Assembly (NCBI RefSeq): GCF_016026235.1
Contig: NZ_CP065613.1
Length of the DNA stretch: 64,000 nt
Direction: 5' to 3' (one strand)
Origin: Escherichia coli
GTDB lineage: Bacteria; Pseudomonadota; Gammaproteobacteria; Enterobacterales; Enterobacteriaceae
Shown here: positions 25,605 through 64,000 of the stretch, in pieces
Layout of the letters: each line of letters begins with the position of its first letter
How positions within the stretch are numbered: the stretch's first letter is position 1
The notes under the pieces: generated by a model
Told to the model about the DNA's origin: nothing
The model's input: only the letters and a program-made list of their open reading frames with translations
Databases searched by the model: none
Made by a program: the position numbers and the translations under genes

Positions 25605-26024
25605 ATGAATACCGTTTGTACCCATTGTCAGGCCATCAATCGCATTCCCGACGATCGGATCGAAGATGCGGCAAAATGCGGACGCTGCGGTCACGACTTG
25701 TTTGACGGAGAGGTGATTAATGCGACCGGTGAAACACTCGACAAATTGCTGAAGGATGATCTACCTGTGGTGATCGACTTCTGGGCACCGTGGTGCGGCC
25801 CCTGCCGTAATTTCGCACCAATTTTTGAAGATGTCGCGCAAGAGCGTAGCGGTAAAGTGCGCTTTGTGAAAGTGAATACCGAAGCTGAACGTGAATTGAG
25901 CAGTCGCTTTGGAATTCGTAGTATACCGACGATCATGATTTTCAAAAACGGTCAGGTTGTCGACATGCTTAATGGCGCAGTACCGAAAGCGCCGTTCGAT
26001 AGCTGGCTGAACGAATCTCTTTAA
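25605..26024 (+). CDS. trxC: Thioredoxin 2
   Basis: 139-aa ORF; N-terminal zinc-binding CxxC pairs plus WCGPC active site. Confidence 0.96.
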
Positions 26025-26092
26025 TCTTACCGGGGCGCATCTTGTGCCCCGTTTTCTCCTCTGCGACAATGGCGTTTTTTCGACGCTCTCTT

Positions 26093-26791
26093 ATGACCGA
26101 AAACGCTGTTCTCCAGTTACGCGCCGAGCGTATTGCGCGCGCAACACGTCCTTTTCTTGCCCGCGGTAATCGCGTTCGTCGCTGCCAACGCTGTCTTTTG
26201 CCAGAGAAATTATGTCTCTGTTCGACAATTACCCCAGCACAAGCAAAAAGTCGCTTCTGTTTGCTGATGTTCGACACCGAGCCAATGAAGCCCAGTAATA
26301 CCGGGCGTCTGATTGCTGATATTTTGCCTGATACCGTTGCGTTTCAATGGTCGCGTACCGAACCCTCGCAGGATTTGCTGGATCTGGTACAAAACCCGGA
26401 TTATCAGCCAATGGTGGTCTTTCCCGCCTCGTATGCTGATGAGCAACGGGAAGTGATCTTCACACCACCTGCCGGTAAGCCACCGCTGTTTATCATGCTC
26501 GATGGTACCTGGCCGGAAGCTCGCAAGATGTTTCGTAAAAGTCCGTATCTGGATAATCTTCCCGTCATTTCCGTCGATCTTTCCCGGCTTTCTGCCTATC
26601 GCCTGCGTGAAGCCCAGGCTGCAGGCCAATATTGTACTGCCGAGGTAGCCATCGCACTGTTAGATATGGCCGGCGATACCGGGGCGGCAGCAGGGTTAGG
26701 CGAGCATTTTACCCGCTTTAAAACACGCTATCTGGCAGGAAAAACGCAACATCTGGGTAGCATCACAGCAGAACAGTTAGAAAGCGTTTAA
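26093..26791 (+). CDS. yfiP: DTW-domain protein (tRNA-uridine aminocarboxypropyltransferase TapT family)
   Basis: Track ORF 26042..26791; start set at MTENAVLQLRAERIARATRPF (232 aa); DGTW motif present. Confidence 0.85.
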   Translation: MTENAVLQLRAERIARATRPFLARGNRVRRCQRCLLPEKLCLCSTITPAQAKSRFCLLMFDTEPMKPSNTGRLIADILPDTVAFQWSRTEPSQDLLDLVQNPDYQPMVVFPASYADEQREVIFTPPAGKPPLFIMLDGTWPEARKMFRKSPYLDNLPVISVDLSRLSAYRLREAQAAGQYCTAEVAIALLDMAGDTGAAAGLGEHFTRFKTRYLAGKTQHLGSITAEQLESV

Positions 26792-26822: not shown

Positions 26823-29483
26823 ATGAGTCAGCGAGGACTGGAAGCACTACTGCGACCAAAATCGATAGCGGTAATTGGCGCGTCGATGAAACCCAATCGC
26901 GCAGGTTACCTGATGATGCGTAACCTGCTGGCGGGAGGCTTTAACGGACCGGTACTCCCGGTGACGCCAGCCTGGAAAGCGGTGTTGGGTGTGTTGGCCT
27001 GGCCGGATATTGCCAGCTTGCCCTTTACACCCGACCTTGCGGTTTTATGTACCAATGCCAGCCGTAATCTTGCTCTTCTGGAAGAGCTCGGCGAGAAAGG
27101 CTGTAAAACCTGCATTATTCTTTCCGCCCCGGCATCGCAACACGAAGATCTCCGCGCCTGCGCCCTGCGCCATAACATGCGCCTGCTTGGACCAAACAGT
27201 CTGGGTTTACTGGCTCCCTGGCAAGGTCTGAATGCCAGCTTTTCGCCTGTGCCGATTAAACGCGGCAAGCTGGCGTTTATTTCACAATCGGCAGCCGTCT
27301 CCAACACCATCCTCGACTGGGCGCAACAGCGTGAGATGGGCTTTTCCTACTTTATTGCGCTCGGCGACAGCCTGGATATCGACGTTGATGAATTGCTCGA
27401 CTATCTGGCGCGCGACAGTAAAACCAGCGCCATCCTGCTCTATCTCGAACAGTTAAGCGACGCGCGACGCTTTGTTTCGGCAGCCCGTAGTGCCTCGCGT
27501 AATAAACCGATTCTGGTGATTAAAAGCGGACGTAGCCCGGCGGCACAGCGACTGCTCAACACGACGGCAGGAATGGACCCGGCATGGGATGCGGCTATTC
27601 AGCGTGCCGGTTTGTTGCGGGTACAGGATACCCACGAACTGTTTTCGGCGGTGGAAACCCTTAGCCATATGCGCCCGCTGCGTGGCGACCGGTTGATGAT
27701 TATCAGCAACGGTGCTGCGCCTGCCGCGCTGGCGCTGGATGCCTTATGGTCACGCAATGGCAAGCTGGCAACGCTAAGCGAAGAAACCTGCCAGAAATTG
27801 CGCGATGCATTGCCAGAACATGTGGCAGTCTCTAACCCGCTCGATCTGCGCGATGACGCCAGCAGCGAGCATTATGTCAAAACGCTGGACATTCTGCTCC
27901 ACAGCCAGGATTTTGATGCGCTGATGGTTATTCATTCGCCCAGCGCCGCTGCTCCCGCAACAGAAAGCGCGCAAGTATTAATTGAAGCGGTAAAGCATCA
28001 TCCCCGCAGCAAATATGTCTCTTTGCTGACGAACTGGTGCGGCGAGCACTCCTCGCAAGAGGCACGACGTTTATTCAGCGAAGCCGGGCTGCCGACCTAC
28101 CGTACCCCGGAAGGAACCATCACTGCTTTTATGCATATGGTGGAGTACCGGCGTAATCAGAAGCAACTACGCGAAACGCCGGCGTTGCCCAGCAATCTGA
28201 CTTCCAATACCGCAGAAGCGCATCTTCTGTTGCAACAGGCGATTGCCGAAGGGGCTACGTCGCTCGATACCCATGAAGTTCAGCCCATCCTGCAATCGTA
28301 TGGCATGAACACGCTCCCTACCTGGATTGCCAGCGATAGCACCGAAGCGGTGCATATTGCCGAACAGATTGGTTATCCGGTGGCGCTGAAATTGCGTTCG
28401 CCGGATATTCCACATAAATCGGAAGTTCAGGGCGTCATGCTGTACTTGCGTACAGCCAATGAAGTCCAGCAAGCGGCAAACGCCATTTTCGATCGCGTAA
28501 AAACGGCCTGGCCGCAGGCGCGGATCCACGGCCTGTTGGTGCAAAGTATGGCTAACCGTGCTGGCGCTCAGGAGTTGCGGGTTGTGGTTGAGCACGATCC
28601 GGTTTTCGGGCCGTTGATCATGCTGGGTGAAGGCGGTGTGGAGTGGCGTCCTGAAGATCAAGCCGTCGTCGCACTGCCGCCGCTGAACATGAACCTGGCC
28701 CGCTATCTGGTTATTCAGGGGATCAAAAGTAAAAAGATTCGTGCGCGCAGTGCGCTACGCCCATTGGATGTTGCAGGCTTGAGCCAGCTTCTGGTGCAGG
28801 TTTCCAACTTGATTGTCGATTGCCCGGAAATTCAGCGTCTGGATATTCATCCTTTGCTGGCTTCTGGCAGTGAATTTACCGCGCTGGATGTCACGCTGGA
28901 TATCTCGCCGTTTGAAGGCGATAACGAGAGTCGGCTGGCAGTGCGCCCTTATCCGAATCAGCTGGAAGAATGGGTAGAATTGAAAAACGGTGAACGCTGC
29001 TTGTTCCGCCCGATTTTGCCAGAAGATGAGCCACAACTTCAGCAATTCATTTCGCGAGTCACCAAAGAAGATCTTTATTACCGCTACTTTAGCGAGATCA
29101 ACGAATTTACCCATGAAGATTTAGCCAACATGACACAGATCGACTACGATCGGGAAATGGCGTTTGTAGCGGTACGACGTATTGATCAAACGGAAGAGAT
29201 CCTCGGCGTCACGCGTGCGATTTCCGATCCTGATAACATCGATGCCGAATTTGCTGTGCTGGTTCGCTCGGATCTCAAAGGGTTAGGCTTAGGTCGACGC
29301 TTAATGGAAAAGTTGATTACCTATACGCGAGATCACGGACTACAACGTCTGAATGGTATTACGATGCCAAACAATCGTGGCATGGTGGCGCTAGCCCGCA
29401 AGCTCGGGTTTAACGTTGATATCCAGCTCGAAGAGGGGATCGTTGGGCTTACGCTAAATCTTGCCCAACGCGAGGAATCATGA
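26823..29483 (+). CDS. patZ: Protein lysine acetyltransferase (acyl-CoA synthetase-like domain + GNAT)
   Basis: 886-aa ORF; matches PatZ (YfiQ/Pka). Confidence 0.95.
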   Translation: MSQRGLEALLRPKSIAVIGASMKPNRAGYLMMRNLLAGGFNGPVLPVTPAWKAVLGVLAWPDIASLPFTPDLAVLCTNASRNLALLEELGEKGCKTCIILSAPASQHEDLRACALRHNMRLLGPNSLGLLAPWQGLNASFSPVPIKRGKLAFISQSAAVSNTILDWAQQREMGFSYFIALGDSLDIDVDELLDYLARDSKTSAILLYLEQLSDARRFVSAARSASRNKPILVIKSGRSPAAQRLLNTTAGMDPAWDAAIQRAGLLRVQDTHELFSAVETLSHMRPLRGDRLMIISNGAAPAALALDALWSRNGKLATLSEETCQKLRDALPEHVAVSNPLDLRDDASSEHYVKTLDILLHSQDFDALMVIHSPSAAAPATESAQVLIEAVKHHPRSKYVSLLTNWCGEHSSQEARRLFSEAGLPTYRTPEGTITAFMHMVEYRRNQKQLRETPALPSNLTSNTAEAHLLLQQAIAEGATSLDTHEVQPILQSYGMNTLPTWIASDSTEAVHIAEQIGYPVALKLRSPDIPHKSEVQGVMLYLRTANEVQQAANAIFDRVKTAWPQARIHGLLVQSMANRAGAQELRVVVEHDPVFGPLIMLGEGGVEWRPEDQAVVALPPLNMNLARYLVIQGIKSKKIRARSALRPLDVAGLSQLLVQVSNLIVDCPEIQRLDIHPLLASGSEFTALDVTLDISPFEGDNESRLAVRPYPNQLEEWVELKNGERCLFRPILPEDEPQLQQFISRVTKEDLYYRYFSEINEFTHEDLANMTQIDYDREMAFVAVRRIDQTEEILGVTRAISDPDNIDAEFAVLVRSDLKGLGLGRRLMEKLITYTRDHGLQRLNGITMPNNRGMVALARKLGFNVDIQLEEGIVGLTLNLAQREES

Positions 29484-29596
29484 GTAAGGTACTGGAAATG
29501 TTGACCACTTAATCGGGACTGGTGTTATTATTGCCCGCTTATGTCGTCTGCATTGCACAGAGGACCCTTCAATGAACAGAGAAGAAATGCACTGTG

Positions 29597-30952
29597 ATGT
29601 TGTCAAAATTTAAGCGTAATAAACATCAACAACACCTTGCCCAACTACCCAAGATTTCTCAATCAGTTGATGATGTCGATTTCTTTTACGCTCCCGCCGA
29701 CTTCCGGGAGACGCTGCTGGAAAAAATAGCCAGCGCGAAGCAGCGCATTTGCATTGTCGCCCTGTATCTCGAACAGGATGACGGTGGCAAAGGCATTCTG
29801 AACGCGTTGTATGAAGCTAAAAGGCAGCGTCCGGAACTGGATGTGCGGGTGCTGGTCGACTGGCATCGTGCACAACGTGGACGCATTGGCGCTGCGGCAT
29901 CTAACACTAACGCTGACTGGTACTGCCGCATGGCGCAGGAAAATCCGGGCGTAGATGTTCCGGTTTATGGCGTTCCAATCAATACCCGTGAAGCCCTTGG
30001 TGTTCTGCACTTTAAAGGCTTTATCATCGACGATAGCGTACTTTATAGCGGTGCCAGCCTGAACGATGTTTACCTGCATCAGCACGATAAATATCGCTAC
30101 GACCGTTATCATCTTATCCGTAACCGTAAGATGTCAGACATTATGTTTGAATGGGTTACACAGAATATTATGAATGGCCGCGGCGTTAATCGTCTGGATG
30201 ATGTTAATCGGCCAAAAAGCCCGGAAATCAAGAACGATATTCGTCTGTTCCGCCAGGAGCTGCGTGATGCCGCTTATCATTTCCAGGGCGATGCCGACAA
30301 CGATCAGCTTTCCGTAACGCCGCTAGTGGGGCTGGGGAAATCGAGTCTGTTGAACAAGACCATTTTCCATCTTATGCCTTGTGCCGAGCAGAAACTAACC
30401 ATCTGTACGCCATACTTCAACCTGCCAGCAATCCTTGTGCGCAATATTATCCAGTTGCTGCGCGAAGGGAAAAAGGTCGAAATTATTGTTGGTGATAAAA
30501 CCGCGAACGACTTCTACATTCCGGAAGATGAACCTTTCAAGATAATTGGCGCATTGCCTTATCTCTATGAGATCAATCTGCGTCGTTTCCTGAGCCGTTT
30601 GCAGTATTACGTCAATACTGACCAGCTAGTGGTTCGGTTATGGAAAGATGACGACAACACCTATCACCTAAAAGGGATGTGGGTTGATGATAAGTGGATG
30701 TTGATCACCGGTAATAATCTGAACCCGCGCGCCTGGCGTCTGGATCTGGAAAACGCCATTTTGATCCACGATCCACAACTGGAGCTTGCGCCGCAGCGAG
30801 AGAAAGAACTGGAGCTGATCCGCGAGCATACCACCATCGTTAAGCACTATCGCGATCTGCAAAGTATTGCCGATTATCCGGTGAAGGTTCGTAAACTCAT
30901 CCGCCGTTTGCGCCGTATCCGCATCGACCGATTAATTAGCCGCATCCTGTAA
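29597..30952 (+). CDS. pssA: CDP-diacylglycerol--serine O-phosphatidyltransferase
   Basis: Track ORF 29594..30952 begins MM; 451-aa product MLSKFKRNKHQQHLAQLPKI; two PLD-type HKG motifs. Confidence 0.95.
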   Translation: MLSKFKRNKHQQHLAQLPKISQSVDDVDFFYAPADFRETLLEKIASAKQRICIVALYLEQDDGGKGILNALYEAKRQRPELDVRVLVDWHRAQRGRIGAAASNTNADWYCRMAQENPGVDVPVYGVPINTREALGVLHFKGFIIDDSVLYSGASLNDVYLHQHDKYRYDRYHLIRNRKMSDIMFEWVTQNIMNGRGVNRLDDVNRPKSPEIKNDIRLFRQELRDAAYHFQGDADNDQLSVTPLVGLGKSSLLNKTIFHLMPCAEQKLTICTPYFNLPAILVRNIIQLLREGKKVEIIVGDKTANDFYIPEDEPFKIIGALPYLYEINLRRFLSRLQYYVNTDQLVVRLWKDDDNTYHLKGMWVDDKWMLITGNNLNPRAWRLDLENAILIHDPQLELAPQREKELELIREHTTIVKHYRDLQSIADYPVKVRKLIRRLRRIRIDRLISRIL

Positions 30953-30956
30953 TCAC

Positions 30957-30986
30957 AACCCCGTCCTGTACGGGGTTTGTTTTTTG
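30957..30986 (+). terminator. Intrinsic terminator after pssA
   Basis: AACCCCGTCC-TGTA-CGGGGTT hairpin followed by TTGTTTTTT, 5 nt after the pssA stop. Confidence 0.75.
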
Positions 30987-30997
30987 GAGGCCACGTT

Positions 30998-31321
30998 TTG
31001 CGTATTCTTTTTGTCTGTTCGCTATTGTTACTTTCTGGATGCAGCCATATGGCTAACGATAGCTGGAGCGGGCAGGATAAAGCTCAACACTTTATCGCCT
31101 CGGCGATGCTTTCCGCCGCCGGAAATGAATATTCACAGCATCAGGGGATGAGCCGGGATCGCAGTGCCATGTTTGGATTGATGTTCTCTGTCAGTTTGGG
31201 GGCGTCAAAAGAGCTTTGGGATAGCCGCCCCGAAGGGAGCGGCTGGAGCTGGAAGGATTTGGCCTGGGATGTCGCCGGTGCAAGCACCGGCTATACCGTC
31301 TGGCAACTGACCCGTCACTAA
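30998..31321 (+). CDS. yfiM: Lipoprotein YfiM
   Basis: Track ORF 30977..31321; likely TTG start at [15 protein letters not shown] (lipobox LSGC) with GGAGG 8 nt upstream; 107 aa. Confidence 0.8.
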
Positions 31322-32616
31322 AGACGCATCCCCTTCCCTTTGCGATGTAGCATCAAAGAAACCAGAAACGCCACCACGGCCATCAAGGTCACATACCAGA
31401 AGAAGGCTGTTTCCATTCCTATTGATTTCAGCGACAACGCTACGTACTCCGCCGAACCACCAAATATAGCATTAGCGACCGCATATGACAGACCAACGCC
31501 TAATGCGCGAACCTGTGCCGGGAACATCTCAGCCTTCAGTATTCCACTGATTGATGTATAAAAACTCACTATCAGCAGGGCACACATCACCAGACCAAAA
31601 GCGGCATAAGGCGAGGAAACGTTTTGCAATGCTGAGAGAATAGGAACGGTAAAAATGGCTGCCAGCGAACCGAAACATAACATTGAGGTACGGCGACCAA
31701 TCTTATCCGACAGCGCGCCAATGAGTGGTTGAATAAGCATGAATACAAACAATGCGGCAGTCATAATGCCACTCGCCACGTTGGCATGCATTCCCGCAGT
31801 ATTTACCAGATACTTCTGCATATAAGTGGTGAAGGTATAGAAACAAAGGGAGCCCGCAGCGGTAAAACCGAGAACCATGATGAATGCACGGCGATTGCGC
31901 CATAATCCTTTCAGAGATCCAGCTTCTTTTAAAGCGCGCGTTTCTTGTTGCGAAGTTTCATCTAATTGACGACGTAACCACAACGCCACAACAGCTAACA
32001 CAGCTCCTAACGCGAAAGGAATACGCCATCCCCACTCTCTGAGTGCAGCGTCTTCCATGGTGTGTTGTAAAACCACGACAACCAGTAGGGCTAGCAGTTG
32101 TCCGCCGATCAACGTCACATACTGAAATGATGCGTAAAAACCTTTGCGCCCTTCAACGGCAACTTCACTCATATAGGTGGCGCTGGTGCCATATTCTCCG
32201 CCAACGGATAATCCCTGAAATAAACGAGCGAAAAGCAATAATGCCGGAGCCCACGTACCTATAGTTTCATAACCTGGGAGGCAGGCGATAACCAGCGATC
32301 CGAAACACATCATACACACCGATAACAGCATCGATTTTTTGCGACCATGTTTATCGGCTATGCGGCCAAATAGCCAACCGCCTATTGGGCGCATCAGGAA
32401 TCCCGCAGCAAAAACACCTGCTGTTTGTAGTAGTTGAGTCGTCGTGTTCCCGGAAGGGAAGAAAATGTGGGCGAAGTAGAGTGAACAGAACGAGTAGACA
32501 TAGAAATCGAACCACTCGACCAGATTACCTGAAGAGGCCCCCACAATCGCCCAAATGCGGCGACGAGTATCACTACTTGTCAGTTTGCTGTCTGCCGTTA
32601 CAGTACTTTCAGCCAT
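31318..32616 (-). CDS. kgtP: Alpha-ketoglutarate:H+ symporter (MFS)
   Basis: Track ORF 31318..32718; start set at [20 protein letters not shown] (432 aa). Confidence 0.93.
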
Positions 32617-32688
32617 GCCATTATGTCTCCTGCCGTAATCCGATGCTTTTGTTGGTCGCTTTTGTTTATTTCTTTTGGTAAAGAAAAT

Positions 32689-32719
32689 GTTATACATTTG
32701 TTGCGTATCATTATGCAAC
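32689..32719 (-). promoter_or_regulatory. Candidate sigma-70 promoter of kgtP
   Basis: Minus-strand TTGCAT - 18 nt - TATAAC, ~70 nt upstream of the kgtP start. Confidence 0.5.
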
Positions 32720-32795
32720 CTTAACCATGAATTTAGTTAGCAGGAAAATGGTTATTGAGGAGCTTAAGGATAAATTTCTGGTAAGGAGGACACGT

Positions 32796-32858
32796 ATGGA
32801 AGTAGGCAAGTTGGGGAAACCGCATCCGTTGCTGAATCTGGCATATGTGGGAGTATAA
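32796..32858 (+). CDS. Candidate unannotated small ORF (20 aa, MEVGKLGKPHPLLNLAYVGV)
   Basis: ATG preceded at 7-nt spacing by TAAGGAGG (consensus Shine-Dalgarno), in the kgtP-rrfG intergenic region; no homology evidence. Confidence 0.2.
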   Translation: MEVGKLGKPHPLLNLAYVGV

Positions 32859-32894
32859 GACGCGCAGCGTCGCATCAGGCATTTTTTTCTGCGC

Positions 32895-32926
32895 CAATGC
32901 AAAAAGGCCATCCGTCAGGATGGCCT
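32895..32926 (-). terminator. rrnG operon terminator
   Basis: AGGCCATCC-GTCA-GGATGGCCT hairpin followed on the minus strand by a U-run, 14 nt downstream of the 5S 3-prime end. Confidence 0.75.
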
Positions 32927-32939
32927 TCTGCTAAATTTG

Positions 32940-33059
32940 ATGCCTGGCAGTTCCCTACTCTCGCATGGGGAGACCCCACACTATCATCGGCGCTACGGCG
33001 TTTCACTTCTGAGTTCGGCATGGGGTCAGGTGGGACCACCGCGCTAAGGCCGCCAGGCA
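32940..33059 (-). rRNA. rrfG: 5S ribosomal RNA
   Basis: 120-nt reverse-strand match to E. coli 5S rRNA (TGCCTGGCGGC...CAGGCAT). Confidence 0.95.
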
Positions 33060-33151
33060 AATTCTGTTTTATCAGACCGCTTCTGCGTTCTGATTTAATC
33101 TGTATCAGGCTGAAAATCTTCTCTCATCCGCCAAAACATCTTCGGCGTTGT

Positions 33152-36053
<2,902 letters not shown>

Positions 36054-62182: not shown

Positions 62183-62665
62183 ATGACGAAGAAAAAAGCA
62201 CATAAACCTGGTTCAGCGACCATCGCGCTTAACAAGCGCGCCCGTCACGAATACTTTATCGAAGAAGAGTTCGAAGCGGGACTTGCCCTGCAAGGCTGGG
62301 AGGTTAAATCCCTGCGCGCAGGAAAAGCCAATATCAGCGACAGCTACGTCCTTCTGCGTGACGGAGAGGCATTTCTGTTTGGCGCTAACATCACGCCAAT
62401 GGCCGTGGCCTCCACGCATGTGGTGTGCGACCCTACCCGTACCCGCAAGTTACTTCTCAACCAGCGCGAACTGGACTCATTGTACGGTCGCGTCAATCGA
62501 GAAGGCTATACCGTAGTGGCGCTCTCCCTGTACTGGAAAAATGCCTGGTGCAAAGTGAAAATCGGCGTCGCCAAAGGTAAGAAACAGCACGATAAACGTT
62601 CAGATATCAAAGAGCGCGAATGGCAGGTGGATAAAGCGCGTATCATGAAAAACGCCCACCGTTAA
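62183..62665 (+). CDS. smpB: SsrA-binding protein SmpB
   Basis: 160-aa ORF matches SmpB. Confidence 0.97.
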
Positions 62666-62880
62666 ACCTGTACTCCAATTATTGACCAGTTCCTCACCGC
62701 GCCTCCCTCTCCGGCGGCGCGAATGAACATCTTATTGGTTATCACATCCGACACAAATGTTGCCATTCCATTGCTTAATCGAATAAAAATCAGGCTACAT
62801 GGGTGCTAAATCTTTAACGATAACGCCATTGAGGCTGGTCATGGCGCTCATAAATCTGGTATACTTACCTTTACACATTG

Positions 62881-63243
62881 GGGCTGATTCTGGATTCGAC
62901 GGGATTTGCGAAACCCAAGGTGCATGCCGAGGGGCGGTTGGCCTCGTAAAAAGCCGCAAAAAATAGTCGCAAACGACGAAAACTACGCTTTAGCAGCTTA
63001 ATAACCTGCTTAGAGCCCTCTCTCCCTAGCCTCCGCTCTTAGGACGGGGATCAAGAGAGGTCAAACCCAAAAGAGATCGCGTGGAAGCCCTGCCTGGGGT
63101 TGAAGCGTTAAAACTTAATCAGGCTAGTTTGTTAGTGGCGTGTCCGTCCGCAGCTGGCAAGCGAATGTAAAGACTGACTAAGCATGTAGTACCGAGGACG
63201 TAGGAATTTCGGACGCGGGTTCAACTCCCGCCAGCTCCACCAA
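62881..63243 (+). ncRNA. ssrA: Transfer-messenger RNA (tmRNA, 10Sa)
   Basis: 363-nt match GGGGCTGATTCTGGATTCGACGGG...GGTTCAACTCCCGCCAGCTCCACCA; internal tag ORF GCA AAC GAC GAA AAC TAC GCT TTA GCA GCT TAA (ANDENYALAA) at ~62970..63002. Confidence 0.95.
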
Positions 63244-63289
63244 AATTCTCCATCGGTGATTACCAGAGTCATCCGATGAAGTCCTAAGA

Positions 63290-63322
63290 GCCCGCACGGC
63301 GCAAGCCCTGCGGGCTTTTTTG
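63290..63322 (+). terminator. ssrA intrinsic terminator
   Basis: AGCCCGCA-CGGCGCAAGCCC-TGCGGGCT stem followed by TTTTTT. Confidence 0.7.
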
Positions 63323-63446
63323 TATCTGCAATTTGTCCCGCGAAGTCCGAAGAGAACTAATTAAATCCGAACCTTTTAGGCCCATTGATAGGCCCAACGA
63401 AAAGCTCTATTGTTTTCGTTGGGCCTAAACGCATGGAGACTCCCCA

Positions 63447-64000
63447 TGGCAAGAAAAACCAAGCCGTTAACCGATACGGAAATCAAAGCCGCCAAACCTA
63501 AAGATGCCGATTACCAGCTGTATGATGGTGACGGGCTTACTCTGTTAATCAAGTCCAGTGGTAGTAAGCTCTGGCAGTTCCGTTACTATCGACCTCTGAC
63601 AAAGCAGCGAACCAAGCAGAGCTTCGGTGCCTACCCTGCCGTCTCACTTTCTGATGCGCGTAAACTCAGAGCCGAATCTCGAGTTTTATTGGCAAAAGAT
63701 ATTGATCCTCAGGAACATCAGAAAGAACAGGTGAGGAATTCTCAAGAGGCCAAAACCAACACCTTCTTGTTAGTTGCCGAGCGTTGGTGGAATGTGAAGA
63801 AAGCCAGCGTGACAGAGGACTATGCCGACGATATCTGGCGCTCGCTTGAGAGAGATGTTTTTCCAGCAATCGGTGATATCAGTGTCACTGAGATTAAGGC
63901 TCATACTCTGGTTAAAGCAGTTCAGCCGGTTCAGGCTAGAGGTGCATTAGAAACTGTTCGCCGTCTTTGTCAGCGTATTAACGAAGTCATGATTTATGCG
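63447..64000 (+). CDS. intA: P4-family tyrosine integrase, N-terminal ~184 codons; continues beyond window end (prophage/island integrated at ssrA)
   Basis: ATG after a GGAGA RBS; translation MARKTKPLTDTEIKAAKPKDADYQLYDGDGLTLLIKSSGSKLWQFRYY... is typical of P4-like integrase N-terminal (DUF4102/arm-binding) domains; ORF runs off the window so it is absent from the ORF track. Confidence 0.85.

What the first reader, a model, noticed from the sequence alone, without database searches (positions are those of the whole stretch)
30957..31000. yfiM ribosome-binding site embedded in the U-tract of the pssA terminator
The pssA terminator hairpin (AACCCCGTCC...CGGGGTT) runs directly into TTGTTTTTTGGAGG, and the yfiM TTG start follows 8 nt after GGAGG. 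Expression of the YfiM lipoprotein would therefore depend on terminator read-through from pssA, or on a promoter inside the pssA 3-prime coding region, and its SD may be sequestered or exposed depending on termination.
Basis: seen in the sequence. Interest (0 to 1): 0.25.

Follow-up and report, generated by a model that had tools for sequence, protein, structure and literature searches.

The report
Leaky terminator between pssA and yfiM
In E. coli the gene pssA is followed by a small transcription stop signal whose U-rich tail runs straight into the ribosome-binding site of the next gene, yfiM. yfiM can therefore be made only from transcripts that read through the stop signal, which is a conserved but ordinary way of giving a downstream gene a lower dose.

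Summary
pssA stops at 30950-30952. It is followed by an 8-bp hairpin (30957-30977), a U-tract (to 30985), GGAGG (30986-30990), 7 nt, then the RefSeq-annotated TTG start of yfiM (30998).

The hairpin folds better than all 200 shuffles. The same layout (stop, hairpin, T-run, SD, start) is present in all 77 Enterobacteriaceae junctions used for the geometry and alignment. The intergenic region is 40-57 nt in every locus with an upstream contig except one (210 nt). Five of 8 stem pairs show compensatory changes.

Published MG1655 DirectRNA-seq puts a coverage breakpoint exactly at window 30986. Downstream/upstream reads are 0.17 untreated and 0.51 with bicyclomycin, so termination is partial.

My reading is a leaky intrinsic terminator inside the trxC-tapT-patZ-pssA-yfiM cluster that lowers yfiM transcription. 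Terminated RNA lacks the yfiM RBS.

The pssA stop codon lies only 4-6 nt from the hairpin (5-9 nt in 71 of 76 relatives). A terminating ribosome probably blocks the hairpin, linking read-through to pssA translation. This step is inferred.

There is no conserved anti-SD helix and no antiterminator.

This is a new example of a well-known kind, of low interest.

The parts
29597..30952 (+). pssA coding sequence (phosphatidylserine synthase); stop TAA at 30950-30952
   Evidence: ORF list; RefSeq annotation mapped to the window
30953..30956 (+). 4-nt spacer between the pssA stop codon and the hairpin (6 nt to the G+C core). It lies within the footprint of a ribosome sitting on the stop codon.
   Evidence: Sequence. 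The stop-to-core distance is 5-9 nt in 71 of 76 relatives. For the footprint argument see Li et al. 2015, PMC4824070.
30957..30977 (+). Terminator hairpin AACCCCGT-CCTGT-ACGGGGTT (8 bp, 5-nt loop; G+C core 30959-30975)
   Evidence: dG -12.5, z -3.19. Covariation in the 77-sequence alignment.
30976..30985 (+). U-tract TTTGTTTTTT, 9 of 10 T counted from the end of the G+C core. In read-through RNA it is the U-rich leader directly 5' of the yfiM SD.
   Evidence: Sequence. T-run of 5-8 in most relatives. My d'Aubenton-Carafa-type score is about 11 for E. coli, positive in 73 of 77 sequences.
30982..30986 (+). Expected RNA release zone, 7-9 nt after the stem. The published DirectRNA-seq breakpoint at MG1655 2724116 equals window 30986.
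   Evidence: Adams et al. 2021, PMC7815308, supplementary file 2. Coordinate mapping.
30986..30990 (+). yfiM Shine-Dalgarno sequence GGAGG, starting at the nucleotide after the last U of the tract
   Evidence: Sequence. Duplex with the 16S 3' end is -9.3 kcal/mol. The SD starts within -1..+1 nt of the T-run end in 56 of 77 sequences.
30998..31321 (+). yfiM coding sequence (YfiM/DUF2279 lipoprotein, lipobox LLSGC); TTG start at 30998-31000, stop TAA at 31319-31321
   Evidence: RefSeq start. Homologues carry PF10043. An aligned ATG/GTG/TTG start is present in 77 sequences.
31318..32616 (-). Convergent kgtP, overlapping the yfiM stop by 4 nt. Its mRNA 3' ends (31267, 31236) and its Rho-dependent read-through run antisense through yfiM and the terminator.
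   Evidence: Adams supplementary files 1 and 2, located in the window. Listed by ExcludonFinder.

Best explanation
The element is a conserved, partially efficient Rho-independent terminator inside the co-directional trxC-tapT-patZ-pssA-yfiM cluster.

RNA polymerase coming from pssA either releases the transcript at about 30982-30986 or reads through. A released pssA mRNA ends in hairpin+U-tract and lacks the yfiM ribosome-binding site. A read-through RNA carries the SD (GGAGG, directly after the U-tract) and the TTG start. This sets yfiM transcription at a fixed fraction of pssA transcription. In E. coli the fraction is roughly 0.2-0.5.

No RNA switch is involved: there is no antiterminator and no conserved SD-masking helix.

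The pssA stop codon lies only 4-6 nt from the hairpin. A ribosome terminating on pssA close behind the polymerase would cover the 5' arm and suppress termination. The read-through fraction is therefore probably tied to how tightly pssA is being translated. This gating step is inferred.

In read-through RNA the U-tract probably serves as an unstructured U-rich leader for 30S/S1 binding. This is also inferred.

Shown: the anatomy, its conservation and covariation, the obligatory passage through the terminator, and partial coverage loss at this exact point. Inferred: ribosome gating and the dual use of the U-tract.
For: Anatomy and annotation.

Hairpin stability: -12.5 kcal/mol, z = -3.19, 0 of 200 shuffles as good.

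Conservation:
- pssA is immediately upstream of yfiM in 79 of 81 loci; the other two lack upstream DNA.
- The intergenic region is 40-57 nt in all but one locus.
- The RNAalifold consensus is the terminator stem only, with 5 of 8 pairs compensatory.
- 96.2% of stem cells are paired, 0 of 500 shuffles reach the covariation score, and slid controls give 34-53%.

Geometry:
- Core to start codon is 16-24 nt.
- The SD abuts the T-run in 56 of 77 sequences.
- The terminator score is positive in 73 of 77.

In vivo data (Adams et al. 2021, PMC7815308, supplementary file 2):
- The breakpoint is at MG1655 2724116(+), which is window 30986.
- Counts are 179/30 untreated and 90/46 with BCM (the arithmetic reproduces the listed score of 3.05).

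No antiterminator: pairing of the 5' arm with upstream RNA is 0.06 against 0.42 in shuffles for E. coli, and 0 of 77 sequences are enriched.

Ribosome gating:
- The stop-to-core distance is 6-7 nt in 64 of 76 relatives.
- Li et al. 2015 (PMC4824070) found that efficiency of the tR2 terminator fell from about 90% to below 10% when the stop codon was moved from 28 to 5 bp upstream of the terminator. Efficiency was restored when translation was removed.

Read-through into downstream genes is common in E. coli: 40% of termination sites, including prs-dauA and dapA-bamC (Yan et al. 2018, PMC6131387).

The five-gene neighbourhood with PssA and YfiM-1 has been described as a conserved operon (Burroughs et al. 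2025).
Against: - No dominant Term-seq 3' end was called at the pssA terminator in any of three conditions. The curated list holds only about 1000 ends and pssA expression is low.
- The in vivo numbers are small (30 and 46 reads) and come from 800-nt windows that also include RNA antisense to kgtP.
- The site was listed as a Rho termination region with score 3.05. Part of the drop is therefore Rho-dependent, most simply from Rho acting on read-through RNA in or after yfiM.
- If ribosome gating were as strong as for tR2 at 5 bp, more than 90% read-through would be expected. That is more than observed.
- No TSS data could be consulted.
- The E. coli terminator is weaker than the family median: core dG -8.8 against -11.5.
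Confidence: 0.65

Rival explanations
1. yfiM is transcribed mainly from its own promoter inside the 3' part of pssA. The terminator then acts on those transcripts too, or a start site within the 5' arm of the hairpin escapes it. On this view yfiM dosage is not tied to pssA transcription.
For: - One promoter-like site lies in pssA on the + strand (30422-30450, 9 of 12 matches).
- By eye, TCGACC-18-TGTAAT (30924-30953) would place a start inside the 5' arm of the hairpin.
- No TSS data could be examined, so this is not excluded.
Against: - The scan finds no more promoter-like sites than in shuffles: 4 against 4.3.
- TGTAAT lacks the critical -11 A and is not conserved. Many relatives end ...CTC TGA.
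- There is no dip in synonymous variability anywhere in the last 660 nt of pssA: range 0.50-0.87, mean 0.71.
- Any start upstream of 30957 still has to cross the terminator.
Confidence: 0.15
2. Translational coupling by SD masking. In read-through RNA the yfiM SD pairs with sequence around the pssA stop codon, forming an outer helix that encloses the terminator. It is freed only when a ribosome finishes pssA.
For: - The E. coli MFE structure pairs GGAGG with AUCC..GC of the last pssA codons.
- Across the 77 sequences, mean predicted pairing of the SD with the 5' flank is 0.61 against 0.42 for shuffled flanks. Fourteen of 77 rank in the top 2 of 60, mostly some Citrobacter, Enterobacter, Klebsiella and Silvania.
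Against: - E. coli itself is indistinguishable from shuffles: 0.62 against 0.57, rank 23 of 60.
- The 91-nt fold has z = -1.4.
- The candidate outer helix is paired in only 60% of cells, and RNAalifold does not retain it.
- The species are related, so the 14 of 77 are not independent.
Confidence: 0.1
3. The hairpin is chiefly an RNA stability or processing element. It would act as a 3' exonuclease barrier for pssA mRNA, or as a pause or barrier for the antisense kgtP read-through, and would contribute little true termination on the + strand.
For: - The site carries a Rho score of 3.05.
- kgtP read-through crosses the same palindrome in antisense. A minus-strand Rho region lies at window 30612 with score 19.
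- 3' ends of Rho-terminated RNAs are known to be trimmed back to hairpins. Adams et al. make this point in their text.
Against: - A T-run of 5-8 directly after the stem is conserved in nearly all relatives, and the terminator score is positive in 73 of 77. A mere exonuclease barrier does not need it.
- The minus-strand side has no comparable U-tract (GUGAUUAC).
- The 5' arm is kept free of competing upstream pairing.
Confidence: 0.08
4. The terminator is effectively complete, and yfiM is nearly silent in E. coli under laboratory conditions. A TTG start and antisense kgtP transcription add to the repression.
For: - The start codon is TTG in Escherichia.
- Strong kgtP 3' ends lie inside yfiM on the opposite strand.
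- yfiM-kgtP is listed as an excludon.
Against: - Downstream coverage is 17% of upstream, not zero.
- yfiM is conserved at 74-94% protein identity, with its SD and start, in 80 species.
- A yfiM deletion was reported to give small lambda plaques (PMC2900299).
Confidence: 0.05

Closest known systems
Partial (leaky) intrinsic terminators inside operons, e.g. prs-dauA and dapA-bamC (Yan et al. 2018, PMC6131387). From my own knowledge also the rpsU-dnaG-rpoD T1 terminator and the rplL-rpoB attenuator.
   Same: A G+C hairpin plus U-tract sits between two co-directional genes. The downstream gene is expressed from read-through transcripts at a reduced level. No dedicated RNA sensor is involved.
   Different: This one is unusually compact. 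The SD begins at the nucleotide after the U-tract and the start codon is 20 nt from the stem, so terminated RNA ends right at the RBS. In the 50 kb around it, only trxC-tapT shows a comparable co-directional case, and there the next start is 41 nt away. Read-through here has not been measured directly.
Ribosome-mediated repression of stop-codon-proximal terminators (tR2 constructs, Li et al. 2015, PMC4824070; the pyrBI attenuator as cited there)
   Same: The stop codon is 4-6 nt upstream of the hairpin, inside the distance at which a ribosome at the stop codon prevents hairpin folding.
   Different: The pyrBI case uses a leader peptide and a UTP-sensitive pause as a regulatory sensor. Here the upstream ORF is a full-length enzyme gene and no sensing input is known. 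Dependence on translation is untested at this locus.
Translational coupling through an RBS-masking helix opened by the upstream ribosome
   Same: The gene spacing is tight and some complementarity between the SD and the end of pssA appears in predicted folds.
   Different: The defining helix is not conserved (60% paired) and is not better than shuffles in E. coli.
Excludon or convergent-overlap loci (ExcludonFinder, PMC12288877)
   Same: yfiM and kgtP overlap at their 3' ends, and kgtP mRNA extends antisense into yfiM.
   Different: This concerns the other end of yfiM. It is an additional layer, not the feature in the finding.

Membership tests
Intrinsic (Rho-independent) terminator | G+C-rich stem-loop of about 5-12 bp with a short loop | tested here: met
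   8 bp with 5 G-C pairs and a 5-nt loop. dG -12.5, z -3.19.
Intrinsic (Rho-independent) terminator | U-tract of about 7-9 nt immediately 3' of the stem | tested here: met
   UUUGUUUUUU after the G+C core. T-run of 5-8 in most relatives. Score positive in 73 of 77 sequences.
Intrinsic (Rho-independent) terminator | Structure maintained in evolution (compensatory changes) | tested here: met
   5 of 8 pairs have double changes. 96.2% of cells are paired, against 34-53% in slid controls.
Intrinsic (Rho-independent) terminator | RNA 3' ends at the U-tract in vivo, independent of Rho | tested here: inconclusive
   The DirectRNA-seq breakpoint falls exactly at the end of the U-tract (2724116). However, it is listed with a Rho score of 3.05, and no dominant Term-seq peak was called.
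Intra-operon partial terminator (read-through-dependent downstream gene) | Downstream gene co-directional, conserved in synteny, with no room for a promoter after the terminator | tested here: met
   79 of 79 informative loci have pssA directly upstream. The core-to-start distance is 16-24 nt.
Intra-operon partial terminator (read-through-dependent downstream gene) | A measurable fraction of transcripts crosses the terminator | tested here: met
   Downstream/upstream read ratio is 0.17 untreated and 0.51 with BCM in published data. Counts are low and the windows are 800 nt.
Intra-operon partial terminator (read-through-dependent downstream gene) | No independent transcription start for the downstream gene | not testable with these tools
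   No TSS table was reachable. The only indirect evidence is that synonymous sites show no conserved embedded element.
Ribosome-gated terminator (pyrBI-type / stop-proximal) | [quoted passage not shown] | tested here: met
   4 nt to the stem and 6 nt to the core in E. coli. The distance is 5-9 nt in 71 of 76 relatives.
Ribosome-gated terminator (pyrBI-type / stop-proximal) | Termination efficiency rises when upstream translation is removed or the stop codon is moved away | not testable with these tools
   This needs reporter or qRT-PCR experiments. It has been shown only for the tR2 terminator.
Transcription attenuator / riboswitch with an antiterminator | Conserved alternative structure competing with the terminator stem | tested here: not met
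   The 5' arm pairs less with the upstream 90 nt than in shuffles, and 0 of 77 sequences are enriched. There is no Rfam hit in the intergenic region. RNAalifold keeps only the terminator.
Translational coupling by an SD-masking helix | Conserved helix pairing the downstream SD with sequence covered by the upstream terminating ribosome | tested here: not met
   The outer helix is 60% paired. E. coli ranks 23 of 60 against shuffles.

The most novel reading that the evidence does not exclude
The invariant geometry is selected as a translation-gated valve. The features are a stop codon 5-9 nt before the hairpin, the SD abutting the U-tract, and the start codon 16-24 nt after the stem, held across Enterobacteriaceae.

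On this reading, only pssA mRNAs whose lead ribosome is tightly coupled to RNA polymerase extend into yfiM. The predicted phosphatidylserine-head-group-modifying Lipocone enzyme YfiM would then be made strictly in cis and in proportion to active PssA synthesis.

Convergent, Rho-terminated kgtP transcription running antisense across yfiM and the terminator would give a second, nutrient-linked brake. The stop-proximal terminator after trxC would be a sister valve in the same cluster.
Probability: 0.2. Interest if true: 0.4.

Novelty: new member of a known kind. Interest (0 to 1): 0.17.

Why it matters
The finding explains how a conserved but uncharacterised lipoprotein, YfiM, is expressed next to an essential phospholipid-synthesis gene. 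YfiM was recently proposed to act on the product of PssA. It is expressed at a reduced, pssA-linked dose through a leaky terminator.

The locus is a clean natural test case for two questions:
- how the distance between stop codon and terminator tunes read-through;
- how a U-tract can double as the leader of the next gene.

It has practical consequences. The hairpin and U-tract must be kept when making yfiM fusions or pssA deletions. The yfiM-kgtP junction is used as an insertion site, and insertions there sit in a zone of overlapping transcription.

It does not reveal a new mechanism.

Tried and rejected
- **Rfam.** A scan of 29000-33500 found nothing in the intergenic region. It gave only rRNA hits and a chance mir-6 hit at E 0.36.
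- **SD sequestration.** The E. coli MFE suggested an SD:pssA-end helix. It failed the shuffle test in E. coli and failed conservation.
- **Antiterminator.** None was found. The 5' arm is less paired with upstream RNA than in shuffles.
- **Conserved internal promoter or 3'UTR-sRNA seed in pssA.** A synonymous-variability scan of the last 660 nt shows no constrained window.
- **Bidirectional terminator for kgtP.** The minus strand has no U-tract after the stem. The A-runs 5' of the stem in relatives are only 2-5 nt.
- **Literature and data that gave nothing:**
  - Supplements of Dar & Sorek 2018 and Conway 2014 are not held.
  - The TERMITe, SMRT-Cappable-seq and Cappable-seq supplements have no pssA or yfiM entries, and the Cappable-seq GTF is truncated.
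  - Thomason 2015 is not held.
  - A full-text search for the hairpin sequence found 0 papers.
  - A search for pssA + terminator found nothing relevant.
- **More distant YfiM homologues**:
  - One with 60% identity keeps the patZ-pssA-yfiM-kgtP order, with a longer hairpin, U-rich tail and SD.
  - One with 47% identity keeps pssA and a hairpin but has no U-tract (76-nt intergenic region).
  - One with 49% identity is not next to pssA.
  - The layout is therefore not universal outside Enterobacteriaceae.

Full report
**What is there.**
The window is E. coli chromosome. The 1-kb stretch around the finding is 100% identical to several complete genomes and is present in 5425 of 5426.

RefSeq annotation mapped onto the window gives the following:
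- patZ 26823-29483
- pssA 29597-30952
- yfiM 30998-31321, all on the + strand
- kgtP 31318-32616 on the - strand
- trxC and tapT upstream on the + strand

The junction reads ...CTG TAA TCAC AACCCCGT CCTGT ACGGGGTT TGTTTTTT GGAGG CCACGTT TTG CGT.... So:
- The stop codon is 30950-30952.
- The hairpin is 30957-30977, with its G+C core at 30959-30975.
- The U-tract runs to 30985.
- The SD is 30986-30990.
- The annotated TTG start is 30998.

MG1655 is identical here. There are 7 nt, not 8, between GGAGG and TTG.

**Is it more than chance?**
The consensus terminator scan alone is not convincing: 3 sites against 3.1 expected in 3.5 kb. Two other results are:
- The 34-nt hairpin/U-tract folds at -12.5 kcal/mol. 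Shuffles give -5.8 +/- 2.1, so z = -3.19, and 0 of 200 shuffles fold as well.
- The element is conserved with covariation.

A scan of one genome per species with a YfiM alignment returned 80 Enterobacteriaceae loci with 74-94% YfiM identity. pssA lies directly upstream in all 79 loci that have upstream sequence. The stop-to-start intergenic region is 40-57 nt in all but one.

Every junction has the same order: stop codon, a few nt, G+C hairpin, T-run, purine-rich SD, ATG/GTG/TTG.

In the 77-sequence alignment A2:
- RNAalifold predicts only the terminator stem, with 5 of 8 pairs showing compensatory changes. Examples are G-C/A-U at columns 38-58, C-G/U-A at 42-54 and U-A/C-G at 44-52.
- 96.2% of stem cells are paired, against 34-53% when the partner column is slid.
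- No shuffle out of 500 reaches the observed covariation score.

**Geometry.**
- The G+C core begins 5-9 nt after the stop codon in 71 of 76 relatives (6-7 nt in 64) and 16-19 nt in the other five.
- The core ends 16-24 nt before the start codon.
- The SD starts within -1 to +1 nt of the end of the T-run in 56 of 77 sequences, and within 5 nt in 74.
- An SD duplex of -4 kcal/mol or better is present in 59 of 77.
- A d'Aubenton-Carafa-type score that I computed is positive in 73 of 77. E. coli scores about 11 with core dG -8.8, against a family median of about 25 and -11.5. The E. coli version is therefore among the weaker ones.
- Escherichia combines the strongest SD (-9.3) with the weakest start codon (TTG). 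Citrobacter and Salmonella use GTG, and most others use ATG.

**Experimental data found.**
Adams et al. 2021 (eLife, PMC7815308) list in supplementary file 2 a + strand position, 2724116, classed as 'primary, pssA'. The counts are 179, 30, 90 and 46, with Rho score 3.05 and p = 3e-5.

[quoted passage not shown] The arithmetic (46/90)/(30/179) = 3.05 fixes the column order.

Position 2724116 is the first G of GGAGG, which is window 30986 and the nucleotide after the last U. So the sharpest coverage change in the region falls exactly at the predicted release point. Downstream coverage is 17% of upstream in untreated cells and 51% with Rho inhibited.

I read this as partial intrinsic termination, followed by Rho acting on the read-through RNA. 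That RNA is a poorly initiated yfiM message and then untranslated RNA antisense to kgtP. The caveats:
- The counts are low.
- The windows are wide.
- Their curated Term-seq list (about 1000 dominant ends per condition) has no entry for the pssA terminator.

**Mechanism.**
Only 20 nt separate the stem from the start codon, and the SD abuts the U-tract. No promoter can fit after the terminator, so every yfiM-coding transcript must cross it. This follows from the sequence. A terminated RNA ends at or before the first G of the SD and cannot express yfiM.

I tested three RNA-based regulatory ideas and none is supported:
1. **Antiterminator.** In nascent RNA lacking the 3' arm, the 5' arm pairs with the upstream 90 nt less than in shuffles. 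The values are 0.06 against 0.42 for E. coli, and 0.31 against 0.51 on average. None of 77 sequences is enriched.
2. **SD masking by the end of pssA.** The E. coli MFE suggests this. However, E. coli is no different from shuffled flanks (0.62 against 0.57, rank 23 of 60). The family-wide excess (0.61 against 0.42; 14 of 77 in the top 2 of 60) is lineage-restricted. The candidate helix is paired in only 60% of cells.
3. **A known RNA family.** Rfam finds none.

What remains is ribosome proximity. With the pssA stop codon in the A site, the ribosome covers the 5' arm of the hairpin, which starts 4-6 nt away.

Li et al. 2015 (NAR, PMC4824070) measured this effect for the tR2 terminator:
- Efficiency fell from about 90% to below 10% when the stop codon was moved from 28 to 5 bp upstream of the terminator.
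- The repression disappeared when translation was removed.

I therefore consider it likely that read-through into yfiM depends on how closely the lead ribosome on pssA follows the polymerase. This is not shown.

The U-tract directly 5' of the SD would also provide an unstructured U-rich leader. Such leaders are known, from my own knowledge of S1-dependent initiation, to favour 30S binding. This too is inference.

**An internal promoter?**
No TSS table could be reached.
- Promoter-like sites in the region are no more frequent than in shuffles.
- A by-eye candidate (TCGACC-18-TGTAAT, 30924-30953) lacks the -11 A and is not conserved.
- Synonymous variability over the last 660 nt of pssA shows no constrained window: range 0.50-0.87, mean 0.71.

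This argues against a conserved embedded promoter or sRNA seed but does not exclude an E. coli-specific start.

**Context.**
Burroughs, Nicastro and Aravind (2025 preprint, doi 10.1101/2025.01.14.632903) describe a conserved five-gene operon: thioredoxin, DTW enzyme, PatZ-like protein, PssA-like synthase and YfiM-1. They propose that YfiM acts on the phosphatidylserine made by PssA. The window has exactly this order.

Read-through at terminators that adds downstream genes is widespread in E. coli. It occurs at 40% of termination sites, with prs-dauA and dapA-bamC as examples (Yan et al. 2018, PMC6131387).

In the 50 kb around the locus, 13 genes have a strong terminator-like site within 120 nt of their stop. 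The stop-to-core distance is 6-82 nt. Among co-directional pairs separated by fewer than 100 nt, two have such a terminator 6 nt after the stop codon: trxC-tapT and pssA-yfiM. pssA-yfiM is the tightest of all, with 22 nt from core to next start.

**Beyond Enterobacteriaceae**:
- A YfiM homologue of 60% identity keeps patZ-pssA-yfiM-kgtP, with a longer hairpin, U-rich tail and SD.
- One of 47% identity keeps pssA and a hairpin but has no U-tract.
- One of 49% identity is not next to pssA.

**Verdict.**

The element is an ordinary, well-conserved leaky intrinsic terminator used as an intra-operon dosage valve. The stop-proximal position makes ribosome gating plausible.

I found no paper describing this particular terminator. 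It is therefore a new member of a known kind, with low interest (0.17).

Noticed in passing
window 31236-31321 (- strand ends at 31267 and 31236); also 30612 (-): yfiM and kgtP converge and overlap by 4 nt, including both stop codons, with no terminator between them.

Published Term-seq shows very strong minus-strand 3' ends at MG1655 2724397 and 2724366, which are window 31267 and 31236. kgtP mRNA therefore ends 55-85 nt inside yfiM, antisense. The 31267 end lies 7 nt past the hairpin GCCGGUGCUUGCACCGGC.

A minus-strand Rho termination region with score 19 lies at window 30612, inside pssA. kgtP read-through therefore crosses all of yfiM and the pssA terminator in antisense. ExcludonFinder lists yfiM-kgtP as an excludon.
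   Followed up: partly
window 26022-26095: trxC (stop TAA at 26022-26024) is followed 6 nt later by a terminator-like hairpin, CGGGGCGCATCTTGTGCCCCG (26031-26051), plus TTTTCTCC. The tapT ATG is at 26093. This is a second stop-proximal terminator between co-directional genes of the same trxC-tapT-patZ-pssA-yfiM cluster.
   Followed up: partly
L059:2290-2501 (Citrobacter freundii M-21): This is the only locus with a long pssA-yfiM spacer (210 nt). The terminator is kept right after pssA, but about 186 nt carrying several strong hairpins (e.g. CCACCTCCTGTGGAGGTGG) is inserted before yfiM. It could be a small repeat or mobile element that separates the SD from the U-tract.
   Followed up: no
window 30986-31000 and loci L002-L081: The start codon and SD strength of yfiM vary by lineage. 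Escherichia has TTG with the strongest SD (GGAGG, -9.3 kcal/mol) and a comparatively weak terminator. Citrobacter and Salmonella have GTG, and most other genera have ATG. The spacing between SD and start differs by 2 nt among Escherichia species.
   Followed up: partly
window 62280-64000: The far end of the window carries ssrA (tmRNA), an IS5-family transposase and the start of an integrase gene (intA). This is the usual tmRNA-adjacent island junction, taken from the annotation of the matching strain.
   Followed up: no
window 29575-29649 (-): There is a weak Rfam match to the animal mir-6 family (24.7 bits against a gathering score of 58, E 0.36) at the patZ-pssA junction. It is almost certainly chance.
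   Followed up: no
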